A stretch of DNA of 64,000 bases from Trypanosoma brucei (Eukaryota), in NCBI GenBank assembly GCA_000002445.1, contig CM000207.1, positions 768,001 through 832,000 on the forward strand. Reading direction: 5' to 3'. How positions within the stretch are numbered: the first letter of the stretch is position 1; each line of letters starts with the position of its first letter. Below, in pieces: positions 5,414 through 64,000 of the stretch. The translations under genes were made by a program, and so were the position numbers. A model generated the notes under the pieces. The model was given only the letters and a program-made list of their open reading frames with translations, was not told where the DNA came from and made no database searches.

Positions 5414-6550
5414 ATGAAAATTACCTGTACGGATGAAAGTGGCAATGTGTACTCAGCGGAATTGGATCCAACCGCGATGGTTGAGGACCTTTCCGTTCTT
5501 GTAGAGGTGGAGATTGGTATACCCGTGGAGGAACAGTTGCTTATGGCACCTACCGGTGCGATATTGCGTCTGGATGAAACGTTTGGGGCCCAGGGTATAA
5601 CAACTGACTGTTGTGTCACGGTGAGACGCCAGGTGTTGGGAGGAGGCTTGAAACGGCCAGCGGAAGAGCGACCAGACAGGATACCGGAAGTGCAGGCCAG
5701 TGAAGAACGATCTCACATACTGGAGCTGTACGCAACCGAACTGATGTCTGACCAGGATCAGTTGCAGCAGCTCGTGTCGCCGGAGTTTGACGAAACAGAC
5801 CCGGCCATACAGAGCAGGATATATGAGGAAATTAGTAAGCGCAACGTGGAAGAGAACTTAGCAAATGCGCTTGAGTTTGCACCAGAGGCGTTCACCCGTG
5901 TAAGCATGCTCCACGTCACGGTTGAGATTAATAAGGTAAAGGTGAAGGCCTTGGTTGATTGCGGCGCGCAAACGTCCGTCGTGAGTGCCGCCACCGCCGA
6001 GCGCTGCGGCATCAATTGGTTGGTTGACAAGAGGGCAGTGGGTACCGTTCACGGTGTTGGTGAGCAGCGTTCGCTGGGTCGAATTCATCTTACGCAGGCA
6101 AACCTAGGTGGGTTGTTTATTCCCATCTCTCTAGTTGTACTAGAAAGTGAAACTTTTGATCTCATTATTGGACTAGACCAGATGAAAAAGCACCGCATGA
6201 TCATTGACCTCAAGGACGATTGCCTGCGTGTGGGTGGTACCGCTATACCATTTCTCAGTGACTCAGAAGTATCGGAAGAACCGCATAGGGGGACACCATT
6301 TGTGCTTGGAGGTGGCGATGGCAACGAGGACAACAATGCCGCAGATGTTCCGACGGCTGGCGCAAATCAGGGCACGGCAGCGAAAAGAAGTACGGCACCT
6401 TCCGGCCCTAACATCAGCTCCGCTGAAAAGGAGCAGGCAATCGAGACATTCGTTTCTCTAACCCACCTCGAAAGACAGCAGGCCATTGCACTCCTCGAGG
6501 CTGTGAACTGGAACCCACATGCGGCCATGTCACTTCTGATGGAGGAGTGA
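5414..6550 (+). CDS. DDI1: DNA-damage-inducible protein 1 (DDI1)-like: ubiquitin-like domain, retropepsin-type aspartyl protease domain, C-terminal UBA domain
   Basis: Track ORF 5369 starts with GTG; the first ATG is at 5414 ('MKITCTDESGNVY...', a UBL-like N-terminus). The retropepsin core reads 'VKALVDCGAQTSVVS...LIIGLDQMKKHRMIIDL'. The C-terminal UBA reads 'EKEQAIETFVSLTHLERQQAIALLEAVNWNPHAAMSLLME'. Confidence 0.85.
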   Translation: MKITCTDESGNVYSAELDPTAMVEDLSVLVEVEIGIPVEEQLLMAPTGAILRLDETFGAQGITTDCCVTVRRQVLGGGLKRPAEERPDRIPEVQASEERSHILELYATELMSDQDQLQQLVSPEFDETDPAIQSRIYEEISKRNVEENLANALEFAPEAFTRVSMLHVTVEINKVKVKALVDCGAQTSVVSAATAERCGINWLVDKRAVGTVHGVGEQRSLGRIHLTQANLGGLFIPISLVVLESETFDLIIGLDQMKKHRMIIDLKDDCLRVGGTAIPFLSDSEVSEEPHRGTPFVLGGGDGNEDNNAADVPTAGANQGTAAKRSTAPSGPNISSAEKEQAIETFVSLTHLERQQAIALLEAVNWNPHAAMSLLMEE

Positions 6551-7167
6551 TATGTTTGAGTTTAATGTAAAAGAGGAGGAGGGAGGAAAGGCCCCCATTC
6601 ACGTGGGCGCGGGGAATGCGAAATAAAGGCGACATTAACCCCCTTTTTTATTGCTTGTGTGTGAGAGATTGGGGGATAAGTGGACTGCCTTATATACTTG
6701 GTGGTTCTTTCCCCTCCGCCCTTTCAACTCGCGAGCGTGTGCCACGTTATGCTTTGTGAAACTTTTCACCACAATTTTTCTTGCTTGGACATTTGTTGTA
6801 ACGTGTTGTCGGTGTTTTTGTAGGCGATGATATCGTTATTAATATTACCCTGTCTCACGGGGAAAGTACCATCTAAAAAAGTGGAGGGGAGGAAATGGAT
6901 GAGTTTGGGGGAAGGATGAGCGAATATTTTGTGTTTTGCCACAGCCGCGTCACTCTCCATATTCTTTACAACATTTTAATAAACAAAGAACCACATATAT
7001 TTGTGTACACACGTTCCAAGATACTTAGGTAAATGGTGGTACATTTTTTTTTCTGTTGCTTTCCCTGCATATGTGTGTGTATGTCGTTCATTTGCATATT
7101 TTGTTTTCCCCTTTCTTACATATTGAAGCAAATACCTTAGTGGTGGAACTTGTTGCAACAGTTTCTA

Positions 7168-8415
7168 ATGTCCAAGTCTAGTCGTAAAATCACTTGCCTA
7201 TTGCCCTCCGCTTCCAACCAAAGTGGCGATAAGAGGGGAGAGCTGCAGTTGAAGAAGCAAGGACCAGGGGAGCAAACGGCCAATGAGGCTATAACGGTGC
7301 CAGATCTGAAACTAGACGAAACAGTCCGCATAAGGGAAATGTTTACGGAGTATATTAATGGTGAGTATGTAACCACACTATTTGACCTTCGCGTGCTCCT
7401 TTCAGAGCTTGGAGTATATCCCTCCGACGATGAAATGACACTTGTTATGACCGCATTTGAGAACAAAGTGAGTTTTACTAATCTCTGTAGGTACATGCGG
7501 TTTTACAAGAAAGAATTTTTGGAATCGAACAAGCAACGTCACCGTTCCAATGCCGCGCAAGATGAATGCGAGGACACGCTTCGTGCCTTTGTTTCACTTG
7601 GTGGCAACGAAGATGGAAGTGGGAGCGTCTTAGTGGAGGACTTACGGCAGGTGTGCAGAAACTTCGGCCTCACTATTGATATAAACGAGGCACTCAATGG
7701 TTTGAATGAGTCAGAGAGCCCCTTAACGTTGCGCTATATGGAATTTTGCAACCTGTGGAAACATCAAAGCCGTGAGCGAGGTGGGGAATCGGGAACAATA
7801 CGCAGCCTTTCCTTAACCGATACCCTGTATACCTCTGGAGGCTTGGATGGGGAGGCTTCAAATTACATACACTTGCTTAATTTGTTGAAGCCCCACGTGA
7901 GCAACATAAGTTATGAACAAAGTACCCCCGCCATATGTACCCCACTGTTGGCCAGAGGTGATGAAAGTGATGCCAGACATTCACTTCCCAAGTCGGATGA
8001 AAAACACCTGCAGGAGCTAAAGCGGTTTTTATTACCATCTTTGGTTGGGAGTGCGGAGGATCCGGATGCCAATTCGTATGGAGCACAGAGGGACGACGGA
8101 TATCAACTCCCAAGTTTAGTCCAACACATGACACCGCGAGCAGATGCCGAGGAACGCCAACGACCGCTCCGACAGCGGAGGACCAAAGAGGCAGCGGCTC
8201 GACGCAGTGCTGGAAATGATGATAAATCTCATCCACCGACACAAGGCGGATTCCGGGCACCGAGTCCAATGATTCTCTCGCTGCGTAACCTTGCCGCGTA
8301 TCGCCAAAGACTTCAAGCATTTGCTAAAAAGAAGGAGAAGTCAAGGAACAGGGAACGTGGGAAGGGAGGGCACGGTGTATCATCGTACTACGATGATGAC
8401 GGAGCCCGCATTTAA
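7168..8415 (+). CDS. EF-hand domain protein with a basic C-terminal tail
   Basis: Track ORF 7150 starts with TTG; the first ATG is at 7168, just after a polypyrimidine tract plus AG at ~7100-7139. A paired EF-hand-like region reads 'DEMTLVMTAFENKVSFTNLCRYM' and 'LRAFVSLGGNEDGSGSVLVEDLRQVCRNFGLTIDINEALNGL'. Confidence 0.6.
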   Translation: MSKSSRKITCLLPSASNQSGDKRGELQLKKQGPGEQTANEAITVPDLKLDETVRIREMFTEYINGEYVTTLFDLRVLLSELGVYPSDDEMTLVMTAFENKVSFTNLCRYMRFYKKEFLESNKQRHRSNAAQDECEDTLRAFVSLGGNEDGSGSVLVEDLRQVCRNFGLTIDINEALNGLNESESPLTLRYMEFCNLWKHQSRERGGESGTIRSLSLTDTLYTSGGLDGEASNYIHLLNLLKPHVSNISYEQSTPAICTPLLARGDESDARHSLPKSDEKHLQELKRFLLPSLVGSAEDPDANSYGAQRDDGYQLPSLVQHMTPRADAEERQRPLRQRRTKEAAARRSAGNDDKSHPPTQGGFRAPSPMILSLRNLAAYRQRLQAFAKKKEKSRNRERGKGGHGVSSYYDDDGARI

Positions 8416-46934: not shown

Positions 46935-47224
46935 CGGGAGGTGTCTGTGCAATGCGGGCATGAAGGGAATCAGCCCTTTATCCCCATTACATCCCTGTCT
47001 TCCTTCTATCCCCACTGCTGTCGCCGTAGACAAGTGGGTGGCGGGACGAGGCGGGGGGCGAGTGAAGGCACAAAAGAGAAGAGGAAGGACCGAAAGAAGG
47101 AAGGAAGGATACAGCAGAGTATGAGGGTACGTAAATAAGTAAATATGGTATGGTTATGTATTTGTGAACAAAAGAAAACAAAAAGAAATGAAGAGGGAGA
47201 AACGAAAAAAAAACCAAGAAAAAA

Positions 47225-47252
47225 CAACAACAACAACAACACACACACACAC
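47225..47252. repeat. (CAA)n then (CA)n microsatellite
   Basis: Direct reading: caacaacaacaacaacacacacacacac. Confidence 0.9.
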
Positions 47253-48815
47253 GAAGGAATACATATGAAGGGGTATGTTGATAAAAGTAAAAGTTGAGTG
47301 AGGGGAAAACAAAGGTAGCTACTGTAAGGAAATAAAATGAGGAAAGGAATAGCAAGAAAACAGGTAAAGAGAAAAAGAGAAAAAGGAATTACTCACTAAT
47401 TTTTTCTACCTATGACATAAAGGGAAGAATGTCCGGTGAAGTGGGTGAGTGGCGCCGAAAAAGAAAAAAAAATCAGCGAAAGCAAAAGAAAAAAGATGAA
47501 GAAGAAAAACGTGAAATTAACAAAAAGGATACAAGTAATAATAATGTAATACGTCTCTTCTTCAAAAAAAAAAACAACTAATTATATGTGGCCGCCAAAC
47601 GAACGGTAATAAACAAGAATAGAAAAAAGGAAAATATTTGAATAACTAAACAATGAAAATAAATTAAGGAACGGGGAGTGTCAAACCGACCTGACAAACC
47701 GTCTGGTGAGGGCTAGGTATATGCAATCACCACCGTCATCGCTGATTCTCAAGTGCATATTCCCAATAGGGCCACACATGCGCTCATGTACGGTCTCCTA
47801 AGGTGTATGTATGTGTGCGTTAGGTGTGTATGAAGCGAGCAAAGAAGAGAGGGGGGTCGAAATGGATGGCTCGGCAAACGGGTCTGCCAACTATTTTCTT
47901 CCCTCTCCCTTGGTTCTATTGCCTTGGTCGTTTTGCCATTTGAAAGACCTCTTCTTTGTTTTTTCTTCCATTGCACCGCGCCCGTCCCCGACGCCACCGG
48001 GTTCCCATTTTTTTTGTAACTGAAAAGAGGGACGGTACTGACACTTGGGGCGAATAACGGACACTAAGCGAACCTCACCCCTGAGTCTTCCCCACAAGGT
48101 GTTGGTTGCCGCGTGTGCGTGTGCGTGTGATTTGTGTGATACAGACATACGGCGCCGAAGTTGGGGGAAAAAAAGAGAAGAAAAGAACTGAGTTTGAAAA
48201 ATGGGTGTTGGGTGCAGCGAATGGGAAAAGGAAAAGAATGAGAGGAGGTGTAACCAATGCCTTTCGTGCGGCAGCGCGGTTGAAGCGTTCATTGCAGCTT
48301 TACGAAATGTTGCCAGCGCAGGGAAATAATTACCCCGAGAAGTGTCGGAAGGTGCATCTTATTGCAGATGTCCCTGAATGAGAAGTGATGAACGGAAATA
48401 AGGCATTGGAGGAGAGGAATAAAATACAAATAAAATCAAAAAAGGCTGAAAAGAAAAAAAAATAAAAGAGACCTAGCGGTATGCAGCTACCACAAATCGG
48501 CGGACACATGCCTCACTCCCGTGGCGAAGCAGAGGGTACGGCACCCAAACTGTAGGAGCTGCGATGTGTCACACTGCTGTGAGTGTCGCGGCGGCAAACG
48601 GCGTGTGCAGACATCACCGTTTCAATGACGTCAAAAAGGCAGTAGCGTTGAACGTGTCTGTGGAATAGAAAATAAAGTAGGCAAATAACTGCTCATACAC
48701 ATGAGGTCAGCCTCGCATCGCACCCCAATTATTCACCCTTTTCCTTTTCTGATTAACCGGTGGACTGAATAGGGCTCGGCCATGTTTGCTGCTTTTGGTG
48801 TTCTTATCTGCAGCG

Positions 48816-48842
48816 CCCCCCCCCCCCCCCACACACACACAC
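48816..48842. repeat. C15 homopolymer followed by (AC)6
   Basis: Direct reading. Confidence 0.9.
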
Positions 48843-50043
48843 CCGTAGCTCACGCCCTTGTCATTGTTGTCATTTCTTCCATACTCCCGTTTCTTATTTT
48901 CCCTTTACACCGCTGCGCAGTCCGAAAAAGGGAATTAAGGGAAAATATGGTGCCACGCCGAGAGCATAAAGAAGTCACCTCGGCGTTACTCTACTACTTA
49001 ACCCGGCGTGGCCCGCAAATGGTGATGCCCTTCCATCATTTGCCGCAGTAACTTTTTTCCAGTGCAAACTCACAAGACATGCATTTGGAACATATTGGCG
49101 CTGGGGATGTCAGGTGCCAACAGGGGTACTCTGTTTAATTGACGGTCAATAGCAGACAGCGTTTGTGTGATCTCCCTTTACCAGGCTGCAGATCCGTAGG
49201 GGTTGCCGAGTGGGAAGCCATCCGTTACGTTCCTGTCCCATTCCTCTCTTCCTCACACATGATGGTCGCAGCTGCCTGTAGGTATAATGTATTACCTATG
49301 GGTACAGTGAGCATTTGTTTGGAATAAAATGCCTTTTGCGACCATACAACAACCTACGCGTAATCGGCTACACTTATGCCTGAGCTGGTCGTGCGTAGGT
49401 CGCGTGTCTTGAAGGATGGTGCTGCAGGCGCTTTCATGAATGCGGGGCGTTTAAGTTTTCACACTCCCGAAGGGCGGGATTATCGATACGAAGCGTAACA
49501 TCTAGCTCTGAAAATGCGACCTAATCCCTATGCTCAGTCCGACAAACTCCCGAAAAAGTCTATCGTGCACGAGAAAGTCGAAAGGCCACCTATAATGGCT
49601 ACCAACCGTCACTCCCCTCACGGGGCGGGGGCTCAGATTATGATAAACATCTCGAGGAGGGGCCGGAAGCGGTGAACTTTGCACGTGGCTAGGTGCGAGA
49701 ACACGTTTGAATTCTTCACGAGGTCACTAGTTTGTAATATGGGGGAACGAATCACTCATATGGTTGTTACAACGCTATGCAGCTTGAGTGCTCATTTCTT
49801 CGTTTGTATGTACCAGATGTTATGTGAGAGACCAGCTTTTCAACTGTTTCTCAAATAATTGACGGACCTTCGTGAGCGATTGTACTTTTTTTTTTTCCAC
49901 CGTTTCGATGCTATTTTTTGTCCTTTCCCCCTTTTTGAACGCCAACTTTTAGTGAAATTAGTTGTACTTACTGTTGCATCAGGCGGCAGCAACCTAGATT
50001 GGATCGGACGAATCACATTGGCACCGAGTACTACCCCCCACTG

Positions 50044-51096: not shown

Positions 51097-52040
51097 GGCC
51101 GTATCGTTCTTTATTCTTGGAGTGGCTTGGTTCTTTTCCTTGTTAGTAAGATCAAAGGTGGGAACCACATCCCTCAGATGAAAAGCGGCGGAGGGAGGGA
51201 GAAAGGTGAACGAGTGGAGGGGAAACTTGGGGAGGAGTGGGCGTCCGTTCTAATTGCTGCTATGTAATAGAAGTATCCGGTACGTATTATTCATGTGTTC
51301 TTGTTTGTGGGTATCCACATTTTTCTTTGGTGCAGATACTTTTCCATCATGATTCCCTGTTTAAAAAGGAGAAACTGCAGGTTCGTTTATGATGTCCACG
51401 CCTGTTAGGCCTGGGAAATTCGACCTCACTGCTTTCCCTTATCACCACTTTGCTCGTTTTCCCGTGCATCTCCCCGTTCCCACGGTGATGGGGGAAAATG
51501 AGTGTACACAAGACGACTGTCAGTAAAGTTTAACAACAGACAAAGCCGAAGTGGGCTTACCTTAGGGAAATCAAGGGACAGCGTTCGACCCAGTAATGGC
51601 ATGCCCCTTTACAACTGCAGTGCGGGTGGTACTTTGCGTCGCTGTACTCAAAATTCTGTGCGACGCCATTAATTTCCGCCGCTTCATTCGGGCACGGGTC
51701 ACGTACGGTGGGGAAGGTGAAAGGGCTTCGAACTTCAACTAATGCCACCTAACATACTCGCGACGCATGCATAAGTACTAAAAGACAAACGAACGGCCGC
51801 CCCCGCAGGTTTGTCATTAGTGTTGCAATTATCGATTCTCCACCCCCACGGAAGCGCACAGATGCACACAAGCAGGCAGAGATACACAAGTACAAACGCG
51901 GTTGTATGTGTGTGCAGGTGATGAACTTCCCCTTTGCGTGCGCCGGCTCCACGAGGGCTATGAGCAACTGACTAGCGGAATGTGATTTCCGCTTTTTTTT
52001 TTCCAAGATGTTGGAGTGCCACCTCCACATCAGTAGAGGC

Positions 52041-52063
52041 AATGTATATATATATATATATAC
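52041..52063. repeat. (TA)n microsatellite
   Basis: Direct reading. Confidence 0.85.
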
Positions 52064-53135
52064 ATTGGCAGCATCCCGTTCATTCACATCCTTATTAACG
52101 TGCGCGCTAGATACGCGGTGGAGGGGAGGCAAGAAAGTGTTTATGGGAGTTATGCACTGAGGGGCAACTATCTTATCAAACCTGCCGCCTCCCTCCCCCC
52201 CCCCACGGCAAAACCGCACATAGCATTAGGTTATTATTATGTCCTTTTGGGGCATTATTATCGTTTTTTTTCTTTTACTTGTCTTCCAGCGTTTGTTATA
52301 ACTGATGGCATCGTGCACAATAAAATGTTTCACCTTTCTTGTGTTGTTGCGCGCGCACGTGTGCATGCGATCACCTCTTTCCCAGTAATGACAGTAGTGC
52401 CCCTTATTCATCAATTAATGAGTTGTTGTGCCGCAATGTGGAACTGTGTGAATCCATGAACGACTCTTCATGCTTGCAGACCGCATTATCGGGAGGGTTC
52501 TATCAGTTGTCCTTTTTCTCATGGTTACACATATCTTTTCTATATCTTCTTCCCCATTCGATGAAAGTACGAAAAGGAACCCCTCGGCACGGGATCTCGG
52601 AGGGGTATGTGGTGTGCACACGTTACGCATACATATATACTTGTATGTATGTATTTATTTGTTTTGCGTTTACCCCTTCCCCACTGCATTGACTTCTAGT
52701 ATATGTTTTCCTTGAGAGGGGGGGGGGGTTGATATATATATATATTTTTTTTCTTTTCCTTTCTATGAGGCAAGTGGCCCTTATTTGTTGGAGGGTGATG
52801 AAACCTTGAGGTAAAGGGGGAAGTGACCACTTGGGGCTAACAACTGACGACAGGAGGAGCGGTGGTAATCACCATGGCGTGAGCGAAGTTATTGGAAATA
52901 CCCTTTTATTAACACGGTGACTACATTAATTCTCTGCAGTGTTTTGTTGCCACGCAGATCAACCATGTTGCAATGGGCATGGTCCCGTCAGTCCCTGGAT
53001 ATGTGCAAAAAAAAACAAATGCGTATACATACGTATATCTATGTGTATGCGTGTGCAATTACACGTCCCCTTCGTTTCTTCACACCAAACTCTTAATGTT
53101 TCACAAGTGGTGAAAGCGGACCTCACGTGGAGGGA

Positions 53136-54418: not shown

Positions 54419-57055
54419 ATGTCGAAATCACGCGCGGTGGTGAAGTTTGGTGGCGACCAATCGAAGGAGAGGGTTTCCTTCCGAAATTTCTTTGATGTGC
54501 TGAATCAACGGCACAGCAACGTGTCCGTCTCAGGCCTGGCGGTGACCCTCTTGTTCGAGTTGCTCTCCATATCCATTTATGTGGAGGCATCTTTCTACGC
54601 CCATCCAACGTCGATATACGATTTCAACTGGAAAACCGGCCGGTTCATTACCGTAGCGATCATCAACGCTATATTCTTTTCGGAGTGGATCGTAATGCTC
54701 TGGGTAGAGGAGCAGAAGGTGAGGTATTGCCTTTCTTTGTTGTCAATCGTAAATGCCCTGACGTGCTTGCCAATGGTTATTGTGGGTATTGGTGCAATTG
54801 TCAAGCCCACATGGCAAAGCGTATGGGTGCCCCTGTTTCTCCGCGTGTGGTGGCTGCGCAAATGCATTTTAGTCCTGCTCGACTATCCGCAGGTTGCGAA
54901 GTGGATGATGGACATAAGACGCGATATCTGTCGTTTCTTGATTACCATGCTTGCCGTCCTCTCCACGTGTGTTGGTATACAGCAGTTTGTGGAGACCTTG
55001 GCTGGGAATTACATGGATCCGTTTTCGTCTCTCTACTGCATGGTCACCACTTTTGGGACGATTGGGTACGGTGACGTATCGCCGCAAACGGCACCGGGTC
55101 GGTTCCTTATGATTGGCTTTCTTGTCGTGGCCCTCAGTTATTTCCTGCCCCTGTTCCAGCGGTTGGCACAAATTGGTCGAGACCACCTGAACTATAATGA
55201 ATGTCACTCGTGTTGGGGAAGGAGGCCGCACGTCATATTCTCCGGTATTTTCACGGGGCTTGGGGCAGAAATCATATTGATGAATTTCTACGCCGGTTGG
55301 AGGAAGTACCTTGGTGTTAGAGTGGTACTTCTTTCTCCTGTCGACTTTCCTCCGGAGGTGAGGCTGTTGGCCGACATCCCTTGGCTCAGGAACCGCGTTG
55401 TACTCATGATTGGAGATTCAGCTAAGCAGGTGGATCTCATACGGGCTGACGCCGCGAACGCCGAGGCTATTTTCTTGTTCGGTGACACGGGTTCGGCAGC
55501 TTATCATGCCGATTACCAGGTGATACAACAATCACTTGCCATACGCCAGTTCGATCCCGAACTCCCTCAACATCTGTACCTTCGAAGCGAGCGACATACC
55601 CGACACGTGGCGTCCTATGCTGCCAGTGTAGTGGAGGTTGAGAGACTGTTGCATCACTTGTTGGGGCTCGGTGCTGCGGTCCCCGGGGCTGTACCCTTAA
55701 TAATGAACCTTCTCCGAACGTACGAACCACTCAAAGTGAAGGGTACAGCTTCACGTCCGTGGATAGAGGAATATGAGTGGTCGCTGCAAAATGATATCCA
55801 CTGTTTGGAGATGCAGCAAACGTTCAGAGGTTATAGTTTCCACAGTTTGGCAAGGCTGCTCCTCCAGCACAACGTCACGCCCATAGGCATTATCGATGAA
55901 AACGGCGAGGTGCAACTCAACCCGCATAGGATATCCTCTTCTGCAGTCAAACTTGTTGTAGTTGCCAAAGCCCTTCGGTCCGCCAGGAGTGCACTGGAGG
56001 CTGCGGAGGAAGCGCACTCTCAGACCTCATTTGGAGAACATACGGGTGAGGTGGAGGGAAAAGAACCATGCATCTACGGAATGGACCGCGAGGCGGCTGC
56101 CGGCGCATACTACACCTCCGATTTTCCCGGTCGGGAGGCCAAAAGTGGAGTTGAGGCGCTGCAGCTTGTGGATGATGCCTACGACTTCGAGAATCATTTT
56201 GTGGTTATCGACCTCTCGATGGCAAAAGCGAAGGCACCAGAAACAGAGGGGGCGCGAGAGGGATCCCTCAGCTCAGCTGCCATGGATGTCTTCCATGTGA
56301 TGCGTTCCATCCGGCAGTCGTATCCACAAAACGATATTGTCTTGCTAACGAAAGACACCTCCTTCTCCGCCTACTTTGGGCGCTATTGGAATTCGGTCCC
56401 GGGTGCCATTCCAGTGAAATATATCGATGGCTGCGGATTGAACGCAAACGACCTCAGACGTTGTAACCTCAAGCGCAGCGCAGGTATCATCATTTTTTTT
56501 TCTGGGGACATTGGGGGTGCCTCTACTGGTGGACTCTCCCTTTTGGTCTTTCTTTCGGTTGCGTCCATTCTTCCTTCGTCGCATAACATACCCGTTGTGG
56601 TGGAACTGGACAGCACGCAGTATCTCTCCCTCTTTCCACCATATGCCGACGACCCGTATCTGTGCAGCAGGGCCGAATCTGATTTTGTATTTGAACCCAA
56701 CTATGTTATCGGCAACGCCTTAAGTAGGCATATGTTTTTCCCATCTGTACACCGTACTTATTTTATGGACGAATTCGTTGACATTATTGACATGATGGTT
56801 AGTGGTGTGGATGAAAGGACGCCGTCACTCGGTCGGCTCCCGTTGCTCTTCACCACTGACTCGTTACACATTTATCAGGACGTAGTTGAATACTGCCTCA
56901 AACTCTGTTATCTACCGATTGGTTTGCACCGTTGCATCTCGGACCCGGAAACCCCGTATATCAACGGCCAACGTTTTGTGCTCACAAACCCACCGGGGGA
57001 TTTGATTGTTGATCAGAAATGCGATGCCGTTTTCTACCTTCTACCGGCTAGTTGA
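54419..57055 (+). CDS. K+ channel subunit of Slo/BK type with RCK domains (kinetoplastid Ca2+-activated K+ channel family)
   Basis: ATG start, 878 aa. The pore helix and selectivity filter read 'MVTTFGTIGYGDVSPQTAPGRFLMIGF'. Multiple hydrophobic TM segments lie N-terminal to the filter. The RCK/TrkA-N-like region begins 'HVIFSGIFTGLGAEIILMNF...VVLMIGDSAKQVDLIRA'. Confidence 0.85.
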   Translation: MSKSRAVVKFGGDQSKERVSFRNFFDVLNQRHSNVSVSGLAVTLLFELLSISIYVEASFYAHPTSIYDFNWKTGRFITVAIINAIFFSEWIVMLWVEEQKVRYCLSLLSIVNALTCLPMVIVGIGAIVKPTWQSVWVPLFLRVWWLRKCILVLLDYPQVAKWMMDIRRDICRFLITMLAVLSTCVGIQQFVETLAGNYMDPFSSLYCMVTTFGTIGYGDVSPQTAPGRFLMIGFLVVALSYFLPLFQRLAQIGRDHLNYNECHSCWGRRPHVIFSGIFTGLGAEIILMNFYAGWRKYLGVRVVLLSPVDFPPEVRLLADIPWLRNRVVLMIGDSAKQVDLIRADAANAEAIFLFGDTGSAAYHADYQVIQQSLAIRQFDPELPQHLYLRSERHTRHVASYAASVVEVERLLHHLLGLGAAVPGAVPLIMNLLRTYEPLKVKGTASRPWIEEYEWSLQNDIHCLEMQQTFRGYSFHSLARLLLQHNVTPIGIIDENGEVQLNPHRISSSAVKLVVVAKALRSARSALEAAEEAHSQTSFGEHTGEVEGKEPCIYGMDREAAAGAYYTSDFPGREAKSGVEALQLVDDAYDFENHFVVIDLSMAKAKAPETEGAREGSLSSAAMDVFHVMRSIRQSYPQNDIVLLTKDTSFSAYFGRYWNSVPGAIPVKYIDGCGLNANDLRRCNLKRSAGIIIFFSGDIGGASTGGLSLLVFLSVASILPSSHNIPVVVELDSTQYLSLFPPYADDPYLCSRAESDFVFEPNYVIGNALSRHMFFPSVHRTYFMDEFVDIIDMMVSGVDERTPSLGRLPLLFTTDSLHIYQDVVEYCLKLCYLPIGLHRCISDPETPYINGQRFVLTNPPGDLIVDQKCDAVFYLLPAS

Positions 57056-59894
57056 TGCTGCCATGATGTTGTCTTCTTTTTTTTTTCCTTCTGGCTGACA
57101 CCGACGATGTGCAAGTGGGCACTTTGACGGTTGTGGTCGCTCGACTCGCCCTTGTGCGCCGCACACTAAAGATAACAATAATAACAATAACGTTAAAAAT
57201 AAATCCTAGGAAGCTTTACCACATCTATCACCACCACCACCCTCCCCGGTGGGCCTTTTTTCCCCCTTTTCTGGTGCCCCTCCCCCCCCCCCCTCCACAC
57301 ACACACACACACACACACATTAGGTCTTTTGAAAATAAGGGAACGGCATGTGCGGTTTTGACCCCTTTGGAGCAGCGGTGAATGGAGCAAACGAGCAACC
57401 CCACGCCATGCGGAGCAACAAAGAGAGACGTATCGCCTACACATGAAGCGGCTAGCGGGGATGAGGGTTGGAAAACGAATCGGGAGGAAACGGCCTTTTT
57501 GCCGGCGAAATAAAAATGGTGTCGGCGAGCGAGTAGGTACGGCAACGCGGGCCTTCAAGGCGGACACTTTCTTGATGAAGCGGATCGGCAACTTCCTTTC
57601 GGGGATGTAAGGCGTAACGCGGTTGTGCGAAACCCCGCGGGGGCCAATGTCAAGCACCATTTTTTTTTTTTTTTTTGCAACGACGGTAAACGGGTAGAGA
57701 AAGAAAAATAGTAACAGACAGGGCCTCAAGCACTATTTTCCCCCCTTTTACATATGGCAAGTCTATTTATATATGATGGGGGCCACAACGTAACCGTGAC
57801 AACGGGGAAGAAATCATCGTGAAGCTGAGCACCCCACTGCAACGGGTGCCGGATCGTGCAACGAAGTGGTTAAAGAGACATTTTATGGAAATCTGAACAA
57901 AAAAGGTGGAGCGCCACATTGTTGTTTAGTGATTGCATTTCGGGCCCGCTGCACCCAGCTGCTGCTGGAAGGGAAATGGGTTCGGGCCACGGCCCAAGCA
58001 CCGCGCAGACGCTCATTGTTTGGATGGAAAGGACGTTTTCATGAAGGAAATAGGGGTTAGGCACTGGAATTTGAGAGAGGTTGTAGGAGAAAGAGAGAAC
58101 TGGTTGGGTGAAAGCGGTTATAAGACGGGGAGAGGCGGTATACTTATTGAGACGTGCGGATGTTGAAGGGGGAAAAAAAGAAGGGGATATGCTTCAGGAA
58201 ATCTATGTGGTTTACGCGTCAATCTCTACACGAACGTGTGGGAGATGACGGGGGTCCGTATGGCTAGACGCCACAGAAAGGGGGACCGGACCCTCACAGA
58301 AACCGAAATCCAGTAGTCAAAAGCGCTGCGACATCTGAGCGGCAGTAGTTAGAGGGAACCGCGTCGCACAATAGCACCGGCTCGCACCGCATTTGAATCC
58401 ACAGCTCCCCCCTCCACTCCCTCCCCATGCTTTCCAGGAACCGTGGGTACGTGGTAATTCCCGAAAAATAATCGGTCAACCGCCCCATATTATGAAGTAG
58501 GCCCAGCTAAGGCATGGGGAATCCCCATGCACGCACAGAGGCGAAGGTTTTTTTCCTTTTTTATGAAGCATATTAGGTCAAACTCTCCACCGTCGCTTGC
58601 CGCCTGCGCCATGACGCTTTAACAGTGTGCAGTAGCAGGTGACGGCAAAAATGCGAACCTCGCACCTATACCAAAGTTCCAGAAGACGATTAAAAAAAGA
58701 AAAACAATATGTGAAATCCTTTTCCCGGATCAACACCCCAAACAGGGACCATCCGCCTACATCAGCAAAAGAATAAGTAATCCCTCTCTCTTTTTGGAAA
58801 TGCGCCTTCCCCGAGTGTCGACACCTGTGGTGTTGCCGTGTCACTTGGAGGGGGTTTCAAGTACAGACTGGGTTCGATACGTCGCGGATCGCAATGGAAT
58901 AATAGATGTTGTTCCCCTTAGTGTTTTGTGAGATGCAATGCGACCCGCAACCCAATAGCGGCATAAGCAATGGAATCAAAACAAATAAAACAAATGCCAA
59001 TACTAACAAAGACTCTTCTTTCCACGATGTTTCCACGGAGTGGTAAAGGAGGCTCTCCTCCGCGTGCCGATGGACGATGGAATGGGCGGACAAAGGGTGT
59101 AACAAGTAATAGCCCCAGTATGTCTAACCAACGCCCTGAACCGTCAGAGGCCCACACTTCGTCAACCTGTTCCCCAGCCTTTCTTCAGGCGCCTGCCGTG
59201 TTCGTACTTGAAATGGCGGGCTTTCGGTGTACTTCTCCTGAGGTCAAATTCACGGCCCATTCCACGGGAATATCGGAAAGGAAAGAGAGGCTTCAGTGTC
59301 CTAACCTCCGCCAAAAAACCGCCAACTACGTGCGGTAAAATCGACGCGGCGGGGGTATCACGGTATCCAGTGATTACGGATCGTCGCGTCATCCATCCAG
59401 AGAGAACCATCCCAAACAGGTTGCCGACCGCAGCTGCCCTTTATTTCCTTCGTCTGCTGCTGGCAGTAGTGCGCAATGAAATCGAGCTCAAGAAGCCAAC
59501 GCGTACCCTAAGAAGAAGGGTGAGGTGCCTTAGCGGTTTCCATCCTTCAGGGGCCGCACAAATACGCAGCCTCTTGGCGGAGCTGTTGAACGAAGCAGCG
59601 GAGGGCGGTGCCCGAAATAGACAAATTGGGACACCCGGTGTGTGCAGCCCAATAAGTGCGTTTATCGGTCGCATAGCGGGTACCTCAGCTACGACTAACT
59701 CCGCATACAAGATCTTTTCCGCGTCTGTGTATAAGAAAGAAAAGAAAGAAAAACCGCATCAAGGGCCAACGGAGGGGAAACACACACATCCATCCGAAGA
59801 GACGGTGAACAACAACGGTGGATCACATATTTTCCCTATGTGACAAGTGGTGCACTCAGCGCTCCTAACCGAAAAAGCATCAGAAGAATAGCTA
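57056..59894. promoter_or_regulatory. convergent strand-switch region (end of + strand PTU meets − strand gene; putative Pol II termination zone)
   Basis: The last + strand gene ends at 57055 and the − strand LRR gene ends at 59895. No convincing ORF lies in between. Composition is GC-rich and strand-balanced, unlike the flanking UTR-type sequence. Confidence 0.6.
57277..57319. repeat. C-run (cccctccccccccccccc) followed by (CA)12
   Basis: Direct reading; lies inside the strand-switch region. Confidence 0.9.
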
Positions 59895-61367
59895 TCATCG
59901 AAGCAGATTCACTCCCCTCGCCTGGAGCTCCGATAAGACTTCACTGTCAATTTTGACACCCCTCAAGTTCACGGAACGCAACCGTGGCAAAGTCGTAAGC
60001 GCTTCCACACCCTTTTCCACTGACAGGCAAGAGTTGAGGCTAATTTCCTCCAAGGTCTTCACTGCAGCGAGGCAAGATACATCGGTAATGTCCATGCACG
60101 TATCGAGGCAAAGCACCACCAAACTGCGGCTTGCGCTCAAATCCCGCAGAGAGTCGTCTGTGATGGGCAAACACGTTCCATCTAGTCTACGGAGTTCAGG
60201 AAGCTGAGAAATATTGCCAATACCCTGTTTCACCTCTGTGCACGCGTCAAGATTTAACTCCCCTAGCGTTTTGAGGCTTACGAGTGCTGATAAATCCGTT
60301 AGATTATCGCAGGAAGAAATATCAAGTCTTACAAGACTCCGACTTGAGCACAAGTCTCGCAGAGCACAATCGGTAATGGGTGTGCAGCTCAAATCAAGTT
60401 CGTAGAGTCCTGGCAACTTACCCAGGTCACCAATACCTGCCACCACAGCCTCGCACGACTGGAGATTAAGGTACTTCAAGGTCTTCAGCTCCGCGAGGGG
60501 CGAGACGTCAGTTAGCTGGTCGCACCAGGAAAGGTTAAGTTTTACCAAACTCCGGCTTGAAGAAAGACCCTGCAAAAAAACGTCCACAATGGAGGAATAA
60601 CTTAGATCAAGTTCATATAGCGCTGGCAAACCACCCAGCTTCCCAACACCTTCCTCCAGAGATGTGCATGACTCAAGAGTAAGCTGTCTCAGAACCTGAA
60701 CATCAGCGATGTGCAGCACATCCGTTAGACAACCACACGAAACTATACAGAGATTCAAAAGACTGGTGGTGGCGCCTAGGCCACGAAGAGAGTTGCCCCT
60801 CATCGACGTGCCTATCAAATACAGCTCGCGAAGTGCCGGCAACTTTCCAAGACTACCGATACCCGTCTCAATACCCACACACTTACATATTGCCAGATGC
60901 TCCAATGCTGTCATCTCAGCAAGAGGTGAAACATCCTTCAAATAGGGACACGAATCAAGGCAGAGTTTTACGAGGTTGCACCCAGCGGTTAGGGTCTGCA
61001 AGCATCCTCCCCTAATTGGGGCCTCAGCAACTTCCAGTGCTTTCAGTTGGGGAAGATTTTTAATGCCAACGAAGTTTTCCAGCTTCGGTGCTTCTTCAAT
61101 AGACAACTCGCCTAGCGACCTCAGTTCGGGAATAGGGCTTAAGTCAGCGAAAGGGTATTCGCCCTCGAAGCGCAGTGTCTGAATGGAAGTGCACAAGCGG
61201 AGAGAACGCAAAGATTCCCTTTCAACTTTTTCCGTGAGGATGAGGTGATGGCAGCTACGCAGCTCATCACTCCCAGTGGCTCGTAGACTGCCAACACGCA
61301 ACCGGTTCGTTTCTCCACAACAAGGGCGAACATCTCCCCCAACACTCGCATCACTTCCTTCAAGCAT
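59895..61367 (-). CDS. leucine-rich repeat protein (kinetoplastid LRRP/ESAG8-like LRR family)
   Basis: The only long ORF on the − strand, 490 aa, ATG start. Built from repeated ~24-residue LRR units, for example 'LDLSCTPITDCALRDLCSSRSLVRLDISSCDNLTDLSALVSLKTL'. The − strand is GT-rich upstream of the gene (61.4-64 kb), consistent with − strand transcription. Confidence 0.85.
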   Translation of the reverse strand: MLEGSDASVGGDVRPCCGETNRLRVGSLRATGSDELRSCHHLILTEKVERESLRSLRLCTSIQTLRFEGEYPFADLSPIPELRSLGELSIEEAPKLENFVGIKNLPQLKALEVAEAPIRGGCLQTLTAGCNLVKLCLDSCPYLKDVSPLAEMTALEHLAICKCVGIETGIGSLGKLPALRELYLIGTSMRGNSLRGLGATTSLLNLCIVSCGCLTDVLHIADVQVLRQLTLESCTSLEEGVGKLGGLPALYELDLSYSSIVDVFLQGLSSSRSLVKLNLSWCDQLTDVSPLAELKTLKYLNLQSCEAVVAGIGDLGKLPGLYELDLSCTPITDCALRDLCSSRSLVRLDISSCDNLTDLSALVSLKTLGELNLDACTEVKQGIGNISQLPELRRLDGTCLPITDDSLRDLSASRSLVVLCLDTCMDITDVSCLAAVKTLEEISLNSCLSVEKGVEALTTLPRLRSVNLRGVKIDSEVLSELQARGVNLLR

Positions 61368-64000
61368 TGCAGACTCCCTACCACTGATGTAGACAACTTT
61401 ACTAGAGATAACTACGGAACAGATACAAGTTACGAACCTTTGGTGCCTCCTCCTCCGCTGTCGCGGTGTCTACTGAAGCAACAAGCTTCCTCTAAGGGTG
61501 GTAACGACCTCCCCAATAAATTTGCGATTAATCAGAAGTAGTCTTCCAACGTGCGCAGGTGAAAATGCATAGATACATAAATAAATACCAGGATCATTAT
61601 TATTATTTTTTTAAATGAAAGAAGGTGGCAACCAAAAGGGAAAGCGCGCTTTTGAACTCATTCATCCGACGTGACGGAAAAAGTTTTCGCACCACGTGCA
61701 AGGTTTCAACAAACACCGGTATACACCAACGCTCTTCCGGAGAAAATGTTGCTGGAGGCTGACGAAAAAGGCCCCCAAATAATGAAGATCACGGTTCATA
61801 AGCCGCACAAACTAACTGACAGGACAATGAAAATGCTCCCAAAGTATTTGTGAAAGTAAGGCAATCCCCACGCGCTACAGCAACTGTCCTCCGCACATTT
61901 CACTCGGTGTTTCACCGAAACGAGGACGACACACACATACACACACACACACGTCTACCCAGCCACTAAAAGCACATCAATCCTCAAAGGAGGAAAAAAA
62001 AAAACGGACAGAAGCTTGGCTGTAGTGTTTCGTTTAGCCCCTCATGTCAAAACAAAAGCTCTTTAAATACTTTAGTTACCTTTCCACTGGAATAACAGAG
62101 TTCCTTCTTCCACACTCAAATACACCAACGAGCTCCTTCACGCACCCTCGGGGTTACCGCGGCTCACCTCTTCTGCATTATGTTCGGCTCATATTGATCA
62201 TTCATTTAACCGGTCATACAATTTAAAATTTTCCCACAACGTAAATTAATCGAAAAAAAAATGAATACACACGAAAATACCAAACGCTCAACCAATAAAA
62301 GCTTGGAACCACCTGTACCACCAAGTCATGGGATACACGTGTCAGGAAAAAAATAATTCGGTAGGTGCAGATTGTACGTATGGATGCAACCAACAAACCA
62401 ACACACTGCAACCGCAACTGCCCGTGGGCCAGTATGAAAGCAACGGTATTTTGAACAGCCCTGCTTTCGTATTAATCAAATCTAAGTGAAGAGAACAACA
62501 ACAAAATATAAACGTGAATATACATTTCCACGAAGGGGTGCGTGCCCTTCCTGGCAGCGCCTGGGGTAAACCAGATATAACGTACTGAGTCGTCGATCAA
62601 AAGATTCCCAGGCGGCTGAATGTAGGCGGTGACAATGCTACAGCATACGCTAACCAGACCCCAGCTTTCTGTAGTGCCAACTGCAGTGCGTTGGGACATC
62701 TTCAATCCTCCTGTTACATGAAAAATGAAGGCAAGCTCGTTAAAACGTTGTTAATTACAACGAAAGGTGATGCCATAAAATACACACGAAACAAAAATGC
62801 ATTGATTTCAATACAATCGGCGCTGATAAAATTAGAAAACCTTAAGCTGCAACCGCACTACACTTCTTCATGGAAGCATAACGACGCACGCAAACGCATC
62901 CGATGATGCCCATTGGCGGTTTTCTCGACTGGGTAAAATCAGATGTGAACAATCGTTGCTACAATACTAGTGCCTTTTTACTTTCCATCTTACTCGTGCG
63001 CCAAGTTCATCACCAGGGCGGCAACAACGCTTCAAAAACCCACACATAGCGACCATATCGCAGTGATATATACTAAATTAATGTGGATACTCAAGGCTCA
63101 ACAAAGCGCAGGAAAGATACTGTGCGTTAACATTATTTTTTCTCACACACAAACAGATTTAACACTCTACATGGATACCCGGTCACGGAATAGAAGCTCT
63201 GCTATGTAGAACGACCCTCTACCCCAAGAAGTCTGGTGGTCCTGTTGAGGCATCACCGTCAACGAGGACGTACCTGCTAGGGCTGGGTAAAACTTCCGTA
63301 AGGCTCCAAACATGGCATTTACATATGAATGCACAGCAATGCATGCACAATATGTATGAGCCAAGGAAAAAACAACACGAAATAAAAGCGCCTGCTCAAC
63401 CTCACAACTGCAAGGGCTTAAATCACTCTTCTGGGGCAACGAACTTAACTGAACAACCCAACAAGTTGGTATTCAATTACCCAAAACGGGGGTCCGCCAA
63501 TGACTCAGAAGGAAAGGGATACGATGGTACGGAGCTGCTGTACGTTACATGGTTTCATTCTGGCACAGACCATGCAGATACCCTTAAGCACTTAGGAAAA
63601 AAAGATGTTTTTCATGTATCGTATCGGTATAGCACTTTAAAACGACGCACAAGTAATACGCCTTCATCAAGTCGGTCCACGCAGCTTAAAAGCCCAAGGG
63701 CTGAGTAGACGTAGCGCGCGCTAACTTCAACTTTAGTCCTCGTATACGGACGTGGGCGTCACTAAACGCAAGCACCCCCAACTTTCCCCTTTACACAAGA
63801 GATGTGGCACGACCACAGCGACACCCCCCAGTTATCTCCCCCTTTTTTCTTTGAATGGAGGTCCAAAAAGGCAACCCCCCGACTTCCTGCCCCATTTTCC
63901 CGTTCTGCAGAAGGCAGCAAGGATGAAGTGAAACATCAGGGAAGAACGCTCAGCCCCAGACTCTATCAGAAAACGAAACGGAAAGCCGCCCAACGACGAC

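What the first reader, a model, noticed from the sequence alone, without database searches (positions are those of the whole stretch)
57056..59894. Convergent strand-switch region closing a 19-gene PTU
Every convincing gene from 0.7 to 57.06 kb is on the + strand, and the next gene (the LRR protein, 59895-61367) is on the − strand. To the right of that gene the − strand shows the GT-rich sense-strand character of kinetoplastid UTRs. In kinetoplastids, convergent strand-switch regions are Pol II termination sites marked by base J and histone variants H3.V/H4.V, and they often host Pol III genes. This 2.8 kb interval is GC-rich and strand-balanced. I could not find a tRNA in it, which makes a plain termination region more likely than a tRNA cluster.
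Basis: partly seen in the sequence, partly recalled or inferred. Interest (0 to 1): 0.55.

Follow-up and report, generated by a model that had tools for sequence, protein, structure and literature searches.

The report
Trypanosome convergent transcription-termination region
This 2.8 kb gene-free gap on Trypanosoma brucei chromosome 9 is an ordinary, already catalogued place where two opposing gene arrays meet and RNA polymerase II stops; the opposing "array" turns out to be a single gene.

Summary
The window is T. brucei-group chromosome 9. Every credible ORF up to 57055 is on the + strand. The last is the Ca-activated K+ channel TbK2/Tb927.9.4820. The next gene, an LRR protein at 59895-61367, is on the - strand.

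The 2839 bp between them holds no tRNA, no Rfam RNA, no Pfam domain in any frame and no repeat. Nothing in it resembles the orthologous loci of other species.

Published stranded RNA-seq (Schulz 2016, S6 Table) names this locus. Antisense RNA over Tb927.9.4820 and Tb927.9.4840 rises more than 4-fold when base J and H3.V are removed. That is the readthrough expected of a J/H3.V-dependent termination site.

Three corrections:
- The reference annotation places a + strand "glucose transporter pseudogene" (Tb927.9.4840) inside the interval. It appears to trace to a 1999 entry, PTGT-4. PTGT-4 matches the genome only by hopping frames 15 times and has no sugar-transporter similarity, so it is not a supported gene.
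- The - strand unit is one gene long. Composition flips again about 0.4 kb beyond the window end, and the next large gene is on the + strand.
- The site is a synteny breakpoint. In T. vivax an LRR gene follows the channel on the same strand.

Verdict: already known, low interest.

The parts
54419..57055 (+). Last + strand gene of the long transcription unit: Ca-activated K+ channel (CAKC; TbK2 / Tb927.9.4820)
   Evidence: Pfam BK_channel_a, Slo-like_RCK and Ion_trans_2. 100% identical to the T. equiperdum CAKC protein, with orthologues across trypanosomatids. The gene ID comes from PMC9799330. Chromosome 9 placement comes from T. b. gambiense FN554972.1.
57056..59894 (.). Convergent strand-switch interval (stop codon to stop codon): 3' UTRs of both flanking genes plus the Pol II termination zone
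   Evidence: No tRNA, Rfam or Pfam hit in any frame. Codon-usage score is at non-coding level except for a weak + frame signal at 59.3-59.6 kb. 51.0% GC. J/H3.V-dependent antisense readthrough is reported for this locus.
57072..57092 (+). First polypyrimidine tract after the channel's stop codon. Candidate guide for its polyadenylation (inferred)
   Evidence: Tract scan; read directly in the sequence.
57254..57319 (+). C-rich tract followed by (CA)12. G-rich/(GT)n on the - strand
   Evidence: The same poly(C)+(CA)n motif occurs in ordinary + strand intergenic gaps at 48809 and 52183 (family D4), so it is not specific to the switch.
57660..57676 (+). T17 run
   Evidence: Function unknown; thymine runs are possible substrate for base J (inference only).
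57976..59476 (+). Footprint of the legacy 'PTGT-4' conceptual protein (CAB41998.1 / Q9U919). It is most likely what the reference calls Tb927.9.4840, 'glucose transporter (pseudogene), putative'. Not a supported gene
   Evidence: It was the only hit among 1.84 billion representatives for the 211-aa ORF. It maps here only with 15 frame changes, in this window and in the gambiense and equiperdum assemblies, and each frame carries 10-24 stops. It has no Pfam family. hhalign against a hexose-transporter profile gives probability 0.1%. The S6 Table geometry (start 3611 bp after the channel's start, length 1505 bp) fits within about 55 nt.
59733..59753 (-). Polypyrimidine tract on the - strand, 142-162 nt downstream of the LRR gene's stop codon. 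Candidate guide for its polyadenylation (inferred)
59895..61367 (-). Leucine-rich repeat protein (LRRP), the only gene of the - strand unit
   Evidence: Pfam LRR families. One residue different from the T. b. gambiense LRRP; 53% identical to a T. congolense protein.
61368..64000 (-). ORF-poor upstream flank of the LRR gene with - strand sense composition. It runs to a divergent switch at about 64.3-64.6 kb, just outside the window
   Evidence: Composition. Skew flip and a 57-60% GC zone in the gambiense and equiperdum extensions. The next large gene, 1258 aa and Cnd1/HEAT-like, is on the + strand at about 68.9 kb.

Best explanation
The interval is a plain convergent strand-switch region of T. 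brucei chromosome 9, that is, a Pol II transcription termination zone. Pol II on the long + strand unit passes the K+ channel gene and runs into the interval. Pol II on a one-gene - strand unit starts at a divergent switch about 0.4 kb beyond the window end, transcribes the LRR gene and enters the interval from the other side. Both are stopped there by termination chromatin (base J and histone H3.V; by analogy with other such sites also H4.V and the J-binding PJW/PP1 complex). As a result little antisense RNA reaches the neighbouring gene. The interval carries the two 3' UTRs and no further gene, tRNA or other recognisable RNA gene. What is shown: the gene layout, the absence of genes, and J/H3.V-dependent readthrough at this locus (from the literature). 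What is inferred: the exact stop points, the poly(A) sites, and the physical presence of J, H3.V and H4.V here.
For: Convergent orientation and gene identities. No tRNA, Rfam or Pfam hit, and no repeat. No similarity to neighbouring genes of other species or to their DNA. The AT-skew flip at about 57.3 kb, and polypyrimidine tracts of both strands interleaved over 58.1-58.8 kb, suggest that the two transcribed zones meet or overlap inside the interval. Schulz et al. 2016 S6 Table reports antisense RNA over Tb927.9.4820 rising 0.018 to 0.539 (Q=0.038) and over Tb927.9.4840 rising 0.124 to 0.635 (Q=0.010) in the J/H3.V double null. The genes start 5116 and 1505 bp from the cSSR edge. The paper's general finding is that loss of both marks causes readthrough at cSSRs. 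The layout is the same in T. b. gambiense and T. equiperdum.
Against: I saw no direct J, H3.V or H4.V occupancy data for this locus. The locus is absent from the supplementary files of three related studies as held by the tool. The reference annotation has a + strand pseudogene in the interval, which would shrink the formal cSSR to about 0.4 kb. The interval's CDS-like GC content and a weak coding-like signal at 59.3-59.6 kb remain unexplained. That the window is the Tb927.9.4820 locus is inferred from chromosome 9 placement, the product name and gene order, not from coordinates.
Confidence: 0.85

Rival explanations
1. The interval holds a real, decayed + strand gene (Tb927.9.4840 / PTGT-4, 'glucose transporter pseudogene'). 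On this view the + strand unit truly ends at about 59.5 kb and the switch region is only about 0.4 kb.
For: The annotation is cited in Schulz S6. GC content is like that of coding sequence. There is a weak + frame codon signal at 59.3-59.6 kb. A 1999 database protein maps here.
Against: No sugar-transporter similarity by six-frame Pfam, by tblastn with THT2 (probe confirmed 99% identical to THT2A), or by an unfiltered profile search with 15 kinetoplastid hexose transporters. PTGT-4 has no Pfam family and an hhalign probability of 0.1%. It needs 15 frame changes in three independent assemblies while staying near-identical within each frame: exact 5-mers cover 475 of 508 residues. That pattern fits an error-laden old sequence better than neutral decay, where substitutions should outnumber indels. 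No homologue exists in any other organism among 1.84 billion representatives.
Confidence: 0.07
2. The convergent switch, and its partner divergent switch at about 64.4 kb, are the two breakpoints of a lineage-specific inversion or inverted insertion of a single LRR gene into a formerly co-directional array. This concerns origin and is compatible with the best explanation.
For: In two T. vivax assemblies an LRR gene sits directly after the channel gene on the same strand, followed by RING-LRR and RHS genes. It is the best T. vivax match to the T. brucei LRRP in my set, at 244 bits against 142 or less, with matching C-terminal ends. The genes on both sides of the LRR unit in T. brucei are on the + strand. 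Every other species has a different insertion after the channel gene.
Against: The best-hit relation is not reciprocal. The T. vivax gene scores higher with a chromosome 7 LRRP (318 against 244 bits), and that gene sits inside a co-directional array. No inverted repeats flank the LRR segment. No DNA similarity to the T. vivax locus remains. The T. congolense context could not be retrieved.
Confidence: 0.3
3. The interval hides a Pol III or other small or long non-coding RNA gene that the available libraries do not cover, for example a trypanosome-specific snoRNA or lncRNA.
For: Several + strand polypyrimidine tracts followed by AG (57660-57676, 58405-58426, 58548-58562, 58781-58795) could act as trans-splice acceptors. 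Rfam coverage of trypanosome snoRNAs is incomplete (my own knowledge).
Against: No ARAGORN or Rfam match even at E<=1. B-box motifs are at chance level. No tandem or dispersed repeats of the kind snoRNA clusters form.
Confidence: 0.06

Closest known systems
T. brucei convergent strand-switch regions (cSSRs), the Pol II transcription termination sites marked by H3.V and base J (Schulz et al. 2016, PMC4721952; Reynolds et al. 2016, PMC4721609)
   Same: Convergent gene arrays and a gene-free gap of 1-5 kb. Antisense readthrough into the neighbouring unit when J and H3.V are removed, reported for the genes at this very locus.
   Different: Nothing essential. One of the two converging units is only one gene long.
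cSSRs that carry tRNA, snRNA or other Pol III genes (surveyed for the TriTryps in PMC2695483)
   Same: Position between converging arrays.
   Different: No tRNA or other recognisable RNA gene here.
Synteny-breakpoint strand-switch regions of trypanosomatids (for example the L. major chromosome 1 switch region, PMC1805754)
   Same: Conserved gene order ends exactly at the switch. Lineage-specific genes (LRR, RHS, trans-sialidase/DGF-1) occupy the break in different species.
   Different: That example is a divergent switch in Leishmania. Here it is a convergent/divergent pair bracketing one LRR gene.

Membership tests
Kinetoplastid convergent strand-switch region (Pol II termination site) | The last genes of two arrays face each other, 3' end to 3' end | tested here: met
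   Channel gene ends at 57055 (+); LRR gene ends at 59895 (-). Same layout in gambiense and equiperdum.
Kinetoplastid convergent strand-switch region (Pol II termination site) | No protein-coding gene between the converging genes | tested here: met
   No Pfam hit in six frames. Non-coding codon-usage scores. The one annotated pseudogene model is unsupported.
Kinetoplastid convergent strand-switch region (Pol II termination site) | Transcription from each side decays in the interval, and readthrough appears when termination marks are removed | not testable with these tools
   Literature only. In wild type, antisense RNA is 0.12 over Tb927.9.4840 and 0.018 over Tb927.9.4820. In the J/H3.V double null it is 0.63 and 0.54 (Schulz 2016 S6).
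Kinetoplastid convergent strand-switch region (Pol II termination site) | Enrichment of base J, H3.V and H4.V | not testable with these tools
   I could not reach occupancy tracks for this locus. A general statement that H3.V and J mark termination sites is in PMC4721952.
tRNA/Pol III gene cluster at a strand switch | At least one tRNA, snRNA, 5S or 7SL gene | tested here: not met
   ARAGORN found 0 genes. Rfam gave 0 matches at gathering score and at E<=1. B-box motifs are at chance level.
Sugar porter / MFS hexose transporter (the label carried by Tb927.9.4840) | Detectable similarity to Sugar_tr (PF00083) or to kinetoplastid THT/LmGT proteins | tested here: not met
   Six-frame Pfam at E<=1 found none. 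Best tblastn hit with THT2 had E=0.28 and lay outside the interval. Best fragment in the unfiltered profile search had E=0.42. PTGT-4 against the transporter profile gave probability 0.1%.
Single-gene (monocistronic) Pol II unit between a divergent and a convergent switch | One gene only between the two switches, with opposite-strand genes on both sides | tested here: met
   No ORF of at least 130 aa with family support between 61368 and the skew flip at about 64.4 kb. The next large gene is on the + strand. The skew flip is seen. The start site itself is inferred from composition, not mapped.

The most novel reading that the evidence does not exclude
The lone, inverted LRR gene may be a lineage-specific insertion or inversion that created a convergent/divergent switch pair. 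Its readthrough, normally blocked by base J and H3.V, would then act as a tunable antisense brake on the essential K+ channel gene TbK2. The CDS-like GC content of the interval would be the remains of whatever gene was disrupted when this happened.
Probability: 0.08. Interest if true: 0.45.

Novelty: already known. Interest (0 to 1): 0.12.

Why it matters
It matters little in itself. This is one of the many annotated convergent termination sites of T. brucei, and it is already included in genome-wide studies.

Three small points have practical value:
- The 'glucose transporter pseudogene' label on Tb927.9.4840 appears to be an inherited artefact. It changes where analyses place the edge of this switch region.
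- The locus is a clean example of a one-gene Pol II unit. It could serve as a compact test bed for initiation and termination, with about 7 kb between the switches.
- It illustrates that the end of the block syntenic with Leishmania chromosome 1 is a hot spot for lineage-specific insertions.

Tried and rejected
- **tRNA and RNA-family scans.** ARAGORN, Rfam at gathering score and Rfam at E<=1 found nothing. B-box motifs were at chance level.
- **Repeats.** Direct, inverted and tandem repeat searches found only low-complexity tracts. No inverted repeats flank the LRR gene.
- **Six-frame Pfam of the interval.** A first attempt failed on stop codons. The rerun with X in place of stops found nothing.
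- **Sugar-transporter relic.** I probed with a THT sequence recalled from memory, later confirmed 99% identical to THT2A. I also used a profile of 15 hexose transporters. Neither found anything.
- **Relics of the genes that follow the channel in other species.** I tested the L. major second K+ channel and M3 peptidase, the T. vivax LRR, RING and RHS genes, and the T. cruzi trans-sialidase and DGF-1 genes. None matched.
- **DNA similarity** to the other species' loci or to the rest of the window: none.
- **T. congolense context and the THT locus** could not be retrieved.
- **Supplements of Reynolds 2016, Kieft 2020 and Kieft 2024**, as held by the tool, do not list these genes.
- **A literature search for 'PTGT'** found nothing relevant.
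- **Orthology of the T. vivax neighbour LRR** with the T. brucei LRRP is not reciprocal, so the inversion scenario stays open.

Full report
**Identity of the window.** The last + strand ORF (54419-57055) encodes a BK/Slo-type K+ channel (Pfam BK_channel_a, Slo-like_RCK, Ion_trans_2). It is 100% identical to the T. equiperdum 'calcium/potassium channel (CAKC)' and has orthologues in all trypanosomatids. The LRR protein (59895-61367, - strand) differs by one residue from the T. b. gambiense DAL972 LRRP. Both genes lie on gambiense chromosome 9 (FN554972.1, about 570-591 kb). The window is 99.7% identical to T. equiperdum OVI and 98.5% to gambiense over 50-64 kb, so it is T. b. brucei-like. A review lists the chromosome 9 channel as TbK2 = Tb927.9.4820.

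**The observation.**
- All non-nested ORFs of at least 150 aa from 688 to 57055 are on the + strand, and the next real gene is on the - strand.
- The 2839 bp between the stop codons has no tRNA, no Rfam match at gathering score or at E<=1, and no Pfam domain in any of the six frames at E<=1.
- It has only low-complexity repeats: (CA)12, a T17 run and poly-C.
- tRNA B-box motifs are at chance level.
- Its GC content, 51.0%, is the highest of the window's 21 intergenic gaps (38-50%) and close to the CDS value of 52.3%.
- GC skew is about 0, but AT skew changes sign about 150-300 nt after the channel's stop codon. Compositionally most of the interval resembles the - strand unit.
- Polypyrimidine tracts followed by AG occur on the + strand as far right as 58795, and on the - strand as far left as 58085. 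Processing signals of the two directions therefore interleave. This is consistent with transcripts that meet or overlap inside the interval (inference).

The T. equiperdum and gambiense contigs extend beyond the window.
- The next large gene, 1258 aa and Cnd1/HEAT-like, is on the + strand at window-equivalent about 68.9 kb.
- Base skews flip at about 64.3-64.6 kb, inside a 57-60% GC zone.
- No credible ORF lies between the LRR gene and that flip.
- The - strand 'array' is therefore one gene, bracketed by this convergent switch and a divergent switch about 0.4 kb beyond the window end.
- Conversely, the + strand unit is much longer than 19 genes. The nearest upstream head-to-tail site is 123 kb from the channel gene's start.

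**Published experimental evidence for this locus.** Schulz et al. 2016 (PMC4721952) carried out stranded poly(A)+ RNA-seq on cells lacking base J, H3.V or both. Their S6 Table lists genes that change more than 4-fold. In the double null:
- Antisense RNA of Tb927.9.4820 rises from 0.018 to 0.539 (Q=0.038). The gene start is 5116 bp from the cSSR edge.
- Antisense RNA of Tb927.9.4840 rises from 0.124 to 0.635 (Q=0.010). The gene start is 1505 bp from the edge.

Antisense to + strand genes means - strand RNA, that is, readthrough from the LRR unit across the interval into the channel gene. In wild type the signal falls about 7-fold between the two features. In the mutant it does not fall. This is the behaviour the paper describes for cSSRs in general. 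Three related studies do not list these genes in the supplementary files as held by the tool.

**The annotated 'gene' in the interval.** The S6 geometry implies a + strand feature of about 1505 bp starting 3611 bp after the channel's start codon. This is Tb927.9.4840, 'glucose transporter (pseudogene), putative'. I found no transporter similarity:
- Six-frame Pfam found nothing.
- tblastn with T. brucei THT2 gave a best hit of E=0.28, outside the interval. The probe was later confirmed 99% identical to THT2A.
- An unfiltered profile search with 15 kinetoplastid hexose transporters gave a best fragment of E=0.42.

A full HMMER scan of 1.84 billion representatives, using the only ORF with a faint coding-like signal (59208-59840 +), returned one hit. 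This was 'PTGT-4 protein [Trypanosoma brucei]', CAB41998.1 / Q9U919, 508 aa.
- PTGT-4 maps to 57976-59476 on the + strand, but only by switching among all three frames 15 times.
- The same holds in the gambiense and equiperdum assemblies, and each frame has 10-24 stops.
- Within frames it is almost identical to the genome: exact 5-mers cover 475 of 508 residues.
- It has no Pfam family, and hhalign against the transporter profile gives probability 0.1%.

Many frameshifts combined with few substitutions is the signature of an error-laden old sequence rather than of neutral decay. My inference is that the pseudogene label was inherited from that entry. The position fits within about 55 nt, and the gap varies in length between strains (2886 against 2839 bp). 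Because of this model, analyses based on the reference annotation place the cSSR at only about 59.5-59.9 kb.

**Comparative context.** Conserved gene order (protein kinase, DEAD-box helicase, two further genes, channel) runs up to the channel gene in every species examined. It ends there.

| Species | What follows the channel gene |
|---|---|
| L. major | A second K+ channel and an M3 peptidase, within about 10 kb of the end of the 269 kb chromosome 1 record |
| T. cruzi | Trans-sialidase and DGF-1 fragments |
| T. theileri | An RHS gene, then unrelated + strand genes |
| T. melophagium | The contig ends |
| T. vivax (two assemblies) | A 731-aa LRR gene on the same strand, 0.8 kb after the channel, then a RING-LRR gene and an RHS gene |

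The T. vivax LRR gene is the best T. vivax match to the T. brucei LRRP in my set, and the two share the same C-terminal end. In reverse, however, it scores higher with a chromosome 7 LRRP, which sits inside a co-directional array. An inversion of an ancestral co-directional LRR gene is therefore plausible but not shown. No flanking inverted repeats remain, no DNA similarity remains, and no relics of neighbouring genes remain.

**Mechanism.** The best-supported reading is an ordinary Pol II termination zone.
- Shown: convergent layout, absence of genes, and J/H3.V-dependent containment of - strand transcription at this locus.
- Inferred from established knowledge of T. brucei termination sites: physical enrichment of J, H3.V and H4.V, action of the J-binding PJW/PP1 complex, and poly(A) site choice guided by the polypyrimidine tracts at 57072-57092 (+) and 59753-59733 (-).

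**Verdict.** The feature is already known and already catalogued, so interest is low. The useful by-products are the unsupported pseudogene label, the one-gene opposing unit and the synteny-breakpoint context.

Noticed in passing
window 57976-59476 (+): A 1999 database protein, 'PTGT-4' (CAB41998.1), is a frame-hopping collage of this non-coding stretch (15 frame changes). It seems to be the source of the 'glucose transporter pseudogene' label of Tb927.9.4840. Neither shows any sugar-transporter similarity.
   Followed up: yes
beyond the window end: L009 about 6700-7100 and L002 about 6500-7500 (window-equivalent about 64.3-65.2 kb): A divergent strand-switch signature (GC and AT skew flip, 57-60% GC) lies just outside the window. 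This makes the LRR gene a one-gene unit. About 4.5 kb of ORF-poor sequence then precedes the next + strand gene (Cnd1/HEAT-like, 1258 aa).
   Followed up: partly
L003 13444-22640 (T. vivax); L005 12923-20666 (T. cruzi); L015 14496-16349 (T. theileri); L006 14855-23054 (L. major): The channel gene marks the end of a conserved synteny block, and each lineage has something different after it. T. vivax has same-strand LRR, RING-LRR and RHS genes. T. cruzi has trans-sialidase and DGF-1 fragments. T. theileri has an RHS gene. L. major has a second K+ channel and an M3 peptidase within about 10 kb of the end of the chromosome 1 record.
   Followed up: partly
window 46935-49998: A 3.06 kb ORF-free gap follows the 404-aa DEAD-box helicase gene (eIF4A-like, by my reading). 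It has positive AT skew (+0.12 overall, +0.32 at 47-48 kb), opposite to every other + strand intergenic gap but one. A 2-2.5 kb gap follows the orthologous helicase gene in T. vivax, T. cruzi, L. major and T. theileri, so it may be a long conserved 3' UTR or an unannotated RNA.
   Followed up: no
window 48809-48842, 52183-52216, 57275-57316: A recurring poly(C) tract followed by (CA)n occurs on the + strand in three gaps (repeat family D4). A (AC)12 tract also lies at 61929-61952.
   Followed up: no
window 51097-53126: A 2 kb gap inside the + strand array holds a 156-aa - strand ORF (51749-52219). I did not examine it.
   Followed up: no
L010-L013 (Logan contigs from runs ERR7929156-64): Four 1.66-1.71 kb contigs carry exactly the LRR coding sequence, with 129-202 nt upstream and about 20-61 nt downstream. 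They have one SNP relative to the window. No spliced-leader sequence was found, and no poly(A) tail was visible in the printed ends. If they are RNA-seq assemblies they hint at a compact mRNA, but the run type could not be checked.
   Followed up: partly
L014 10001-11614 (T. brucei-group chromosome-scale record CM010678.1): The closest T. brucei paralogue of the LRR gene (537 aa, named as a TREU927 LRRP) sits inside an ordinary co-directional array. LRRP genes are therefore not generally lone or switch-associated.
   Followed up: partly
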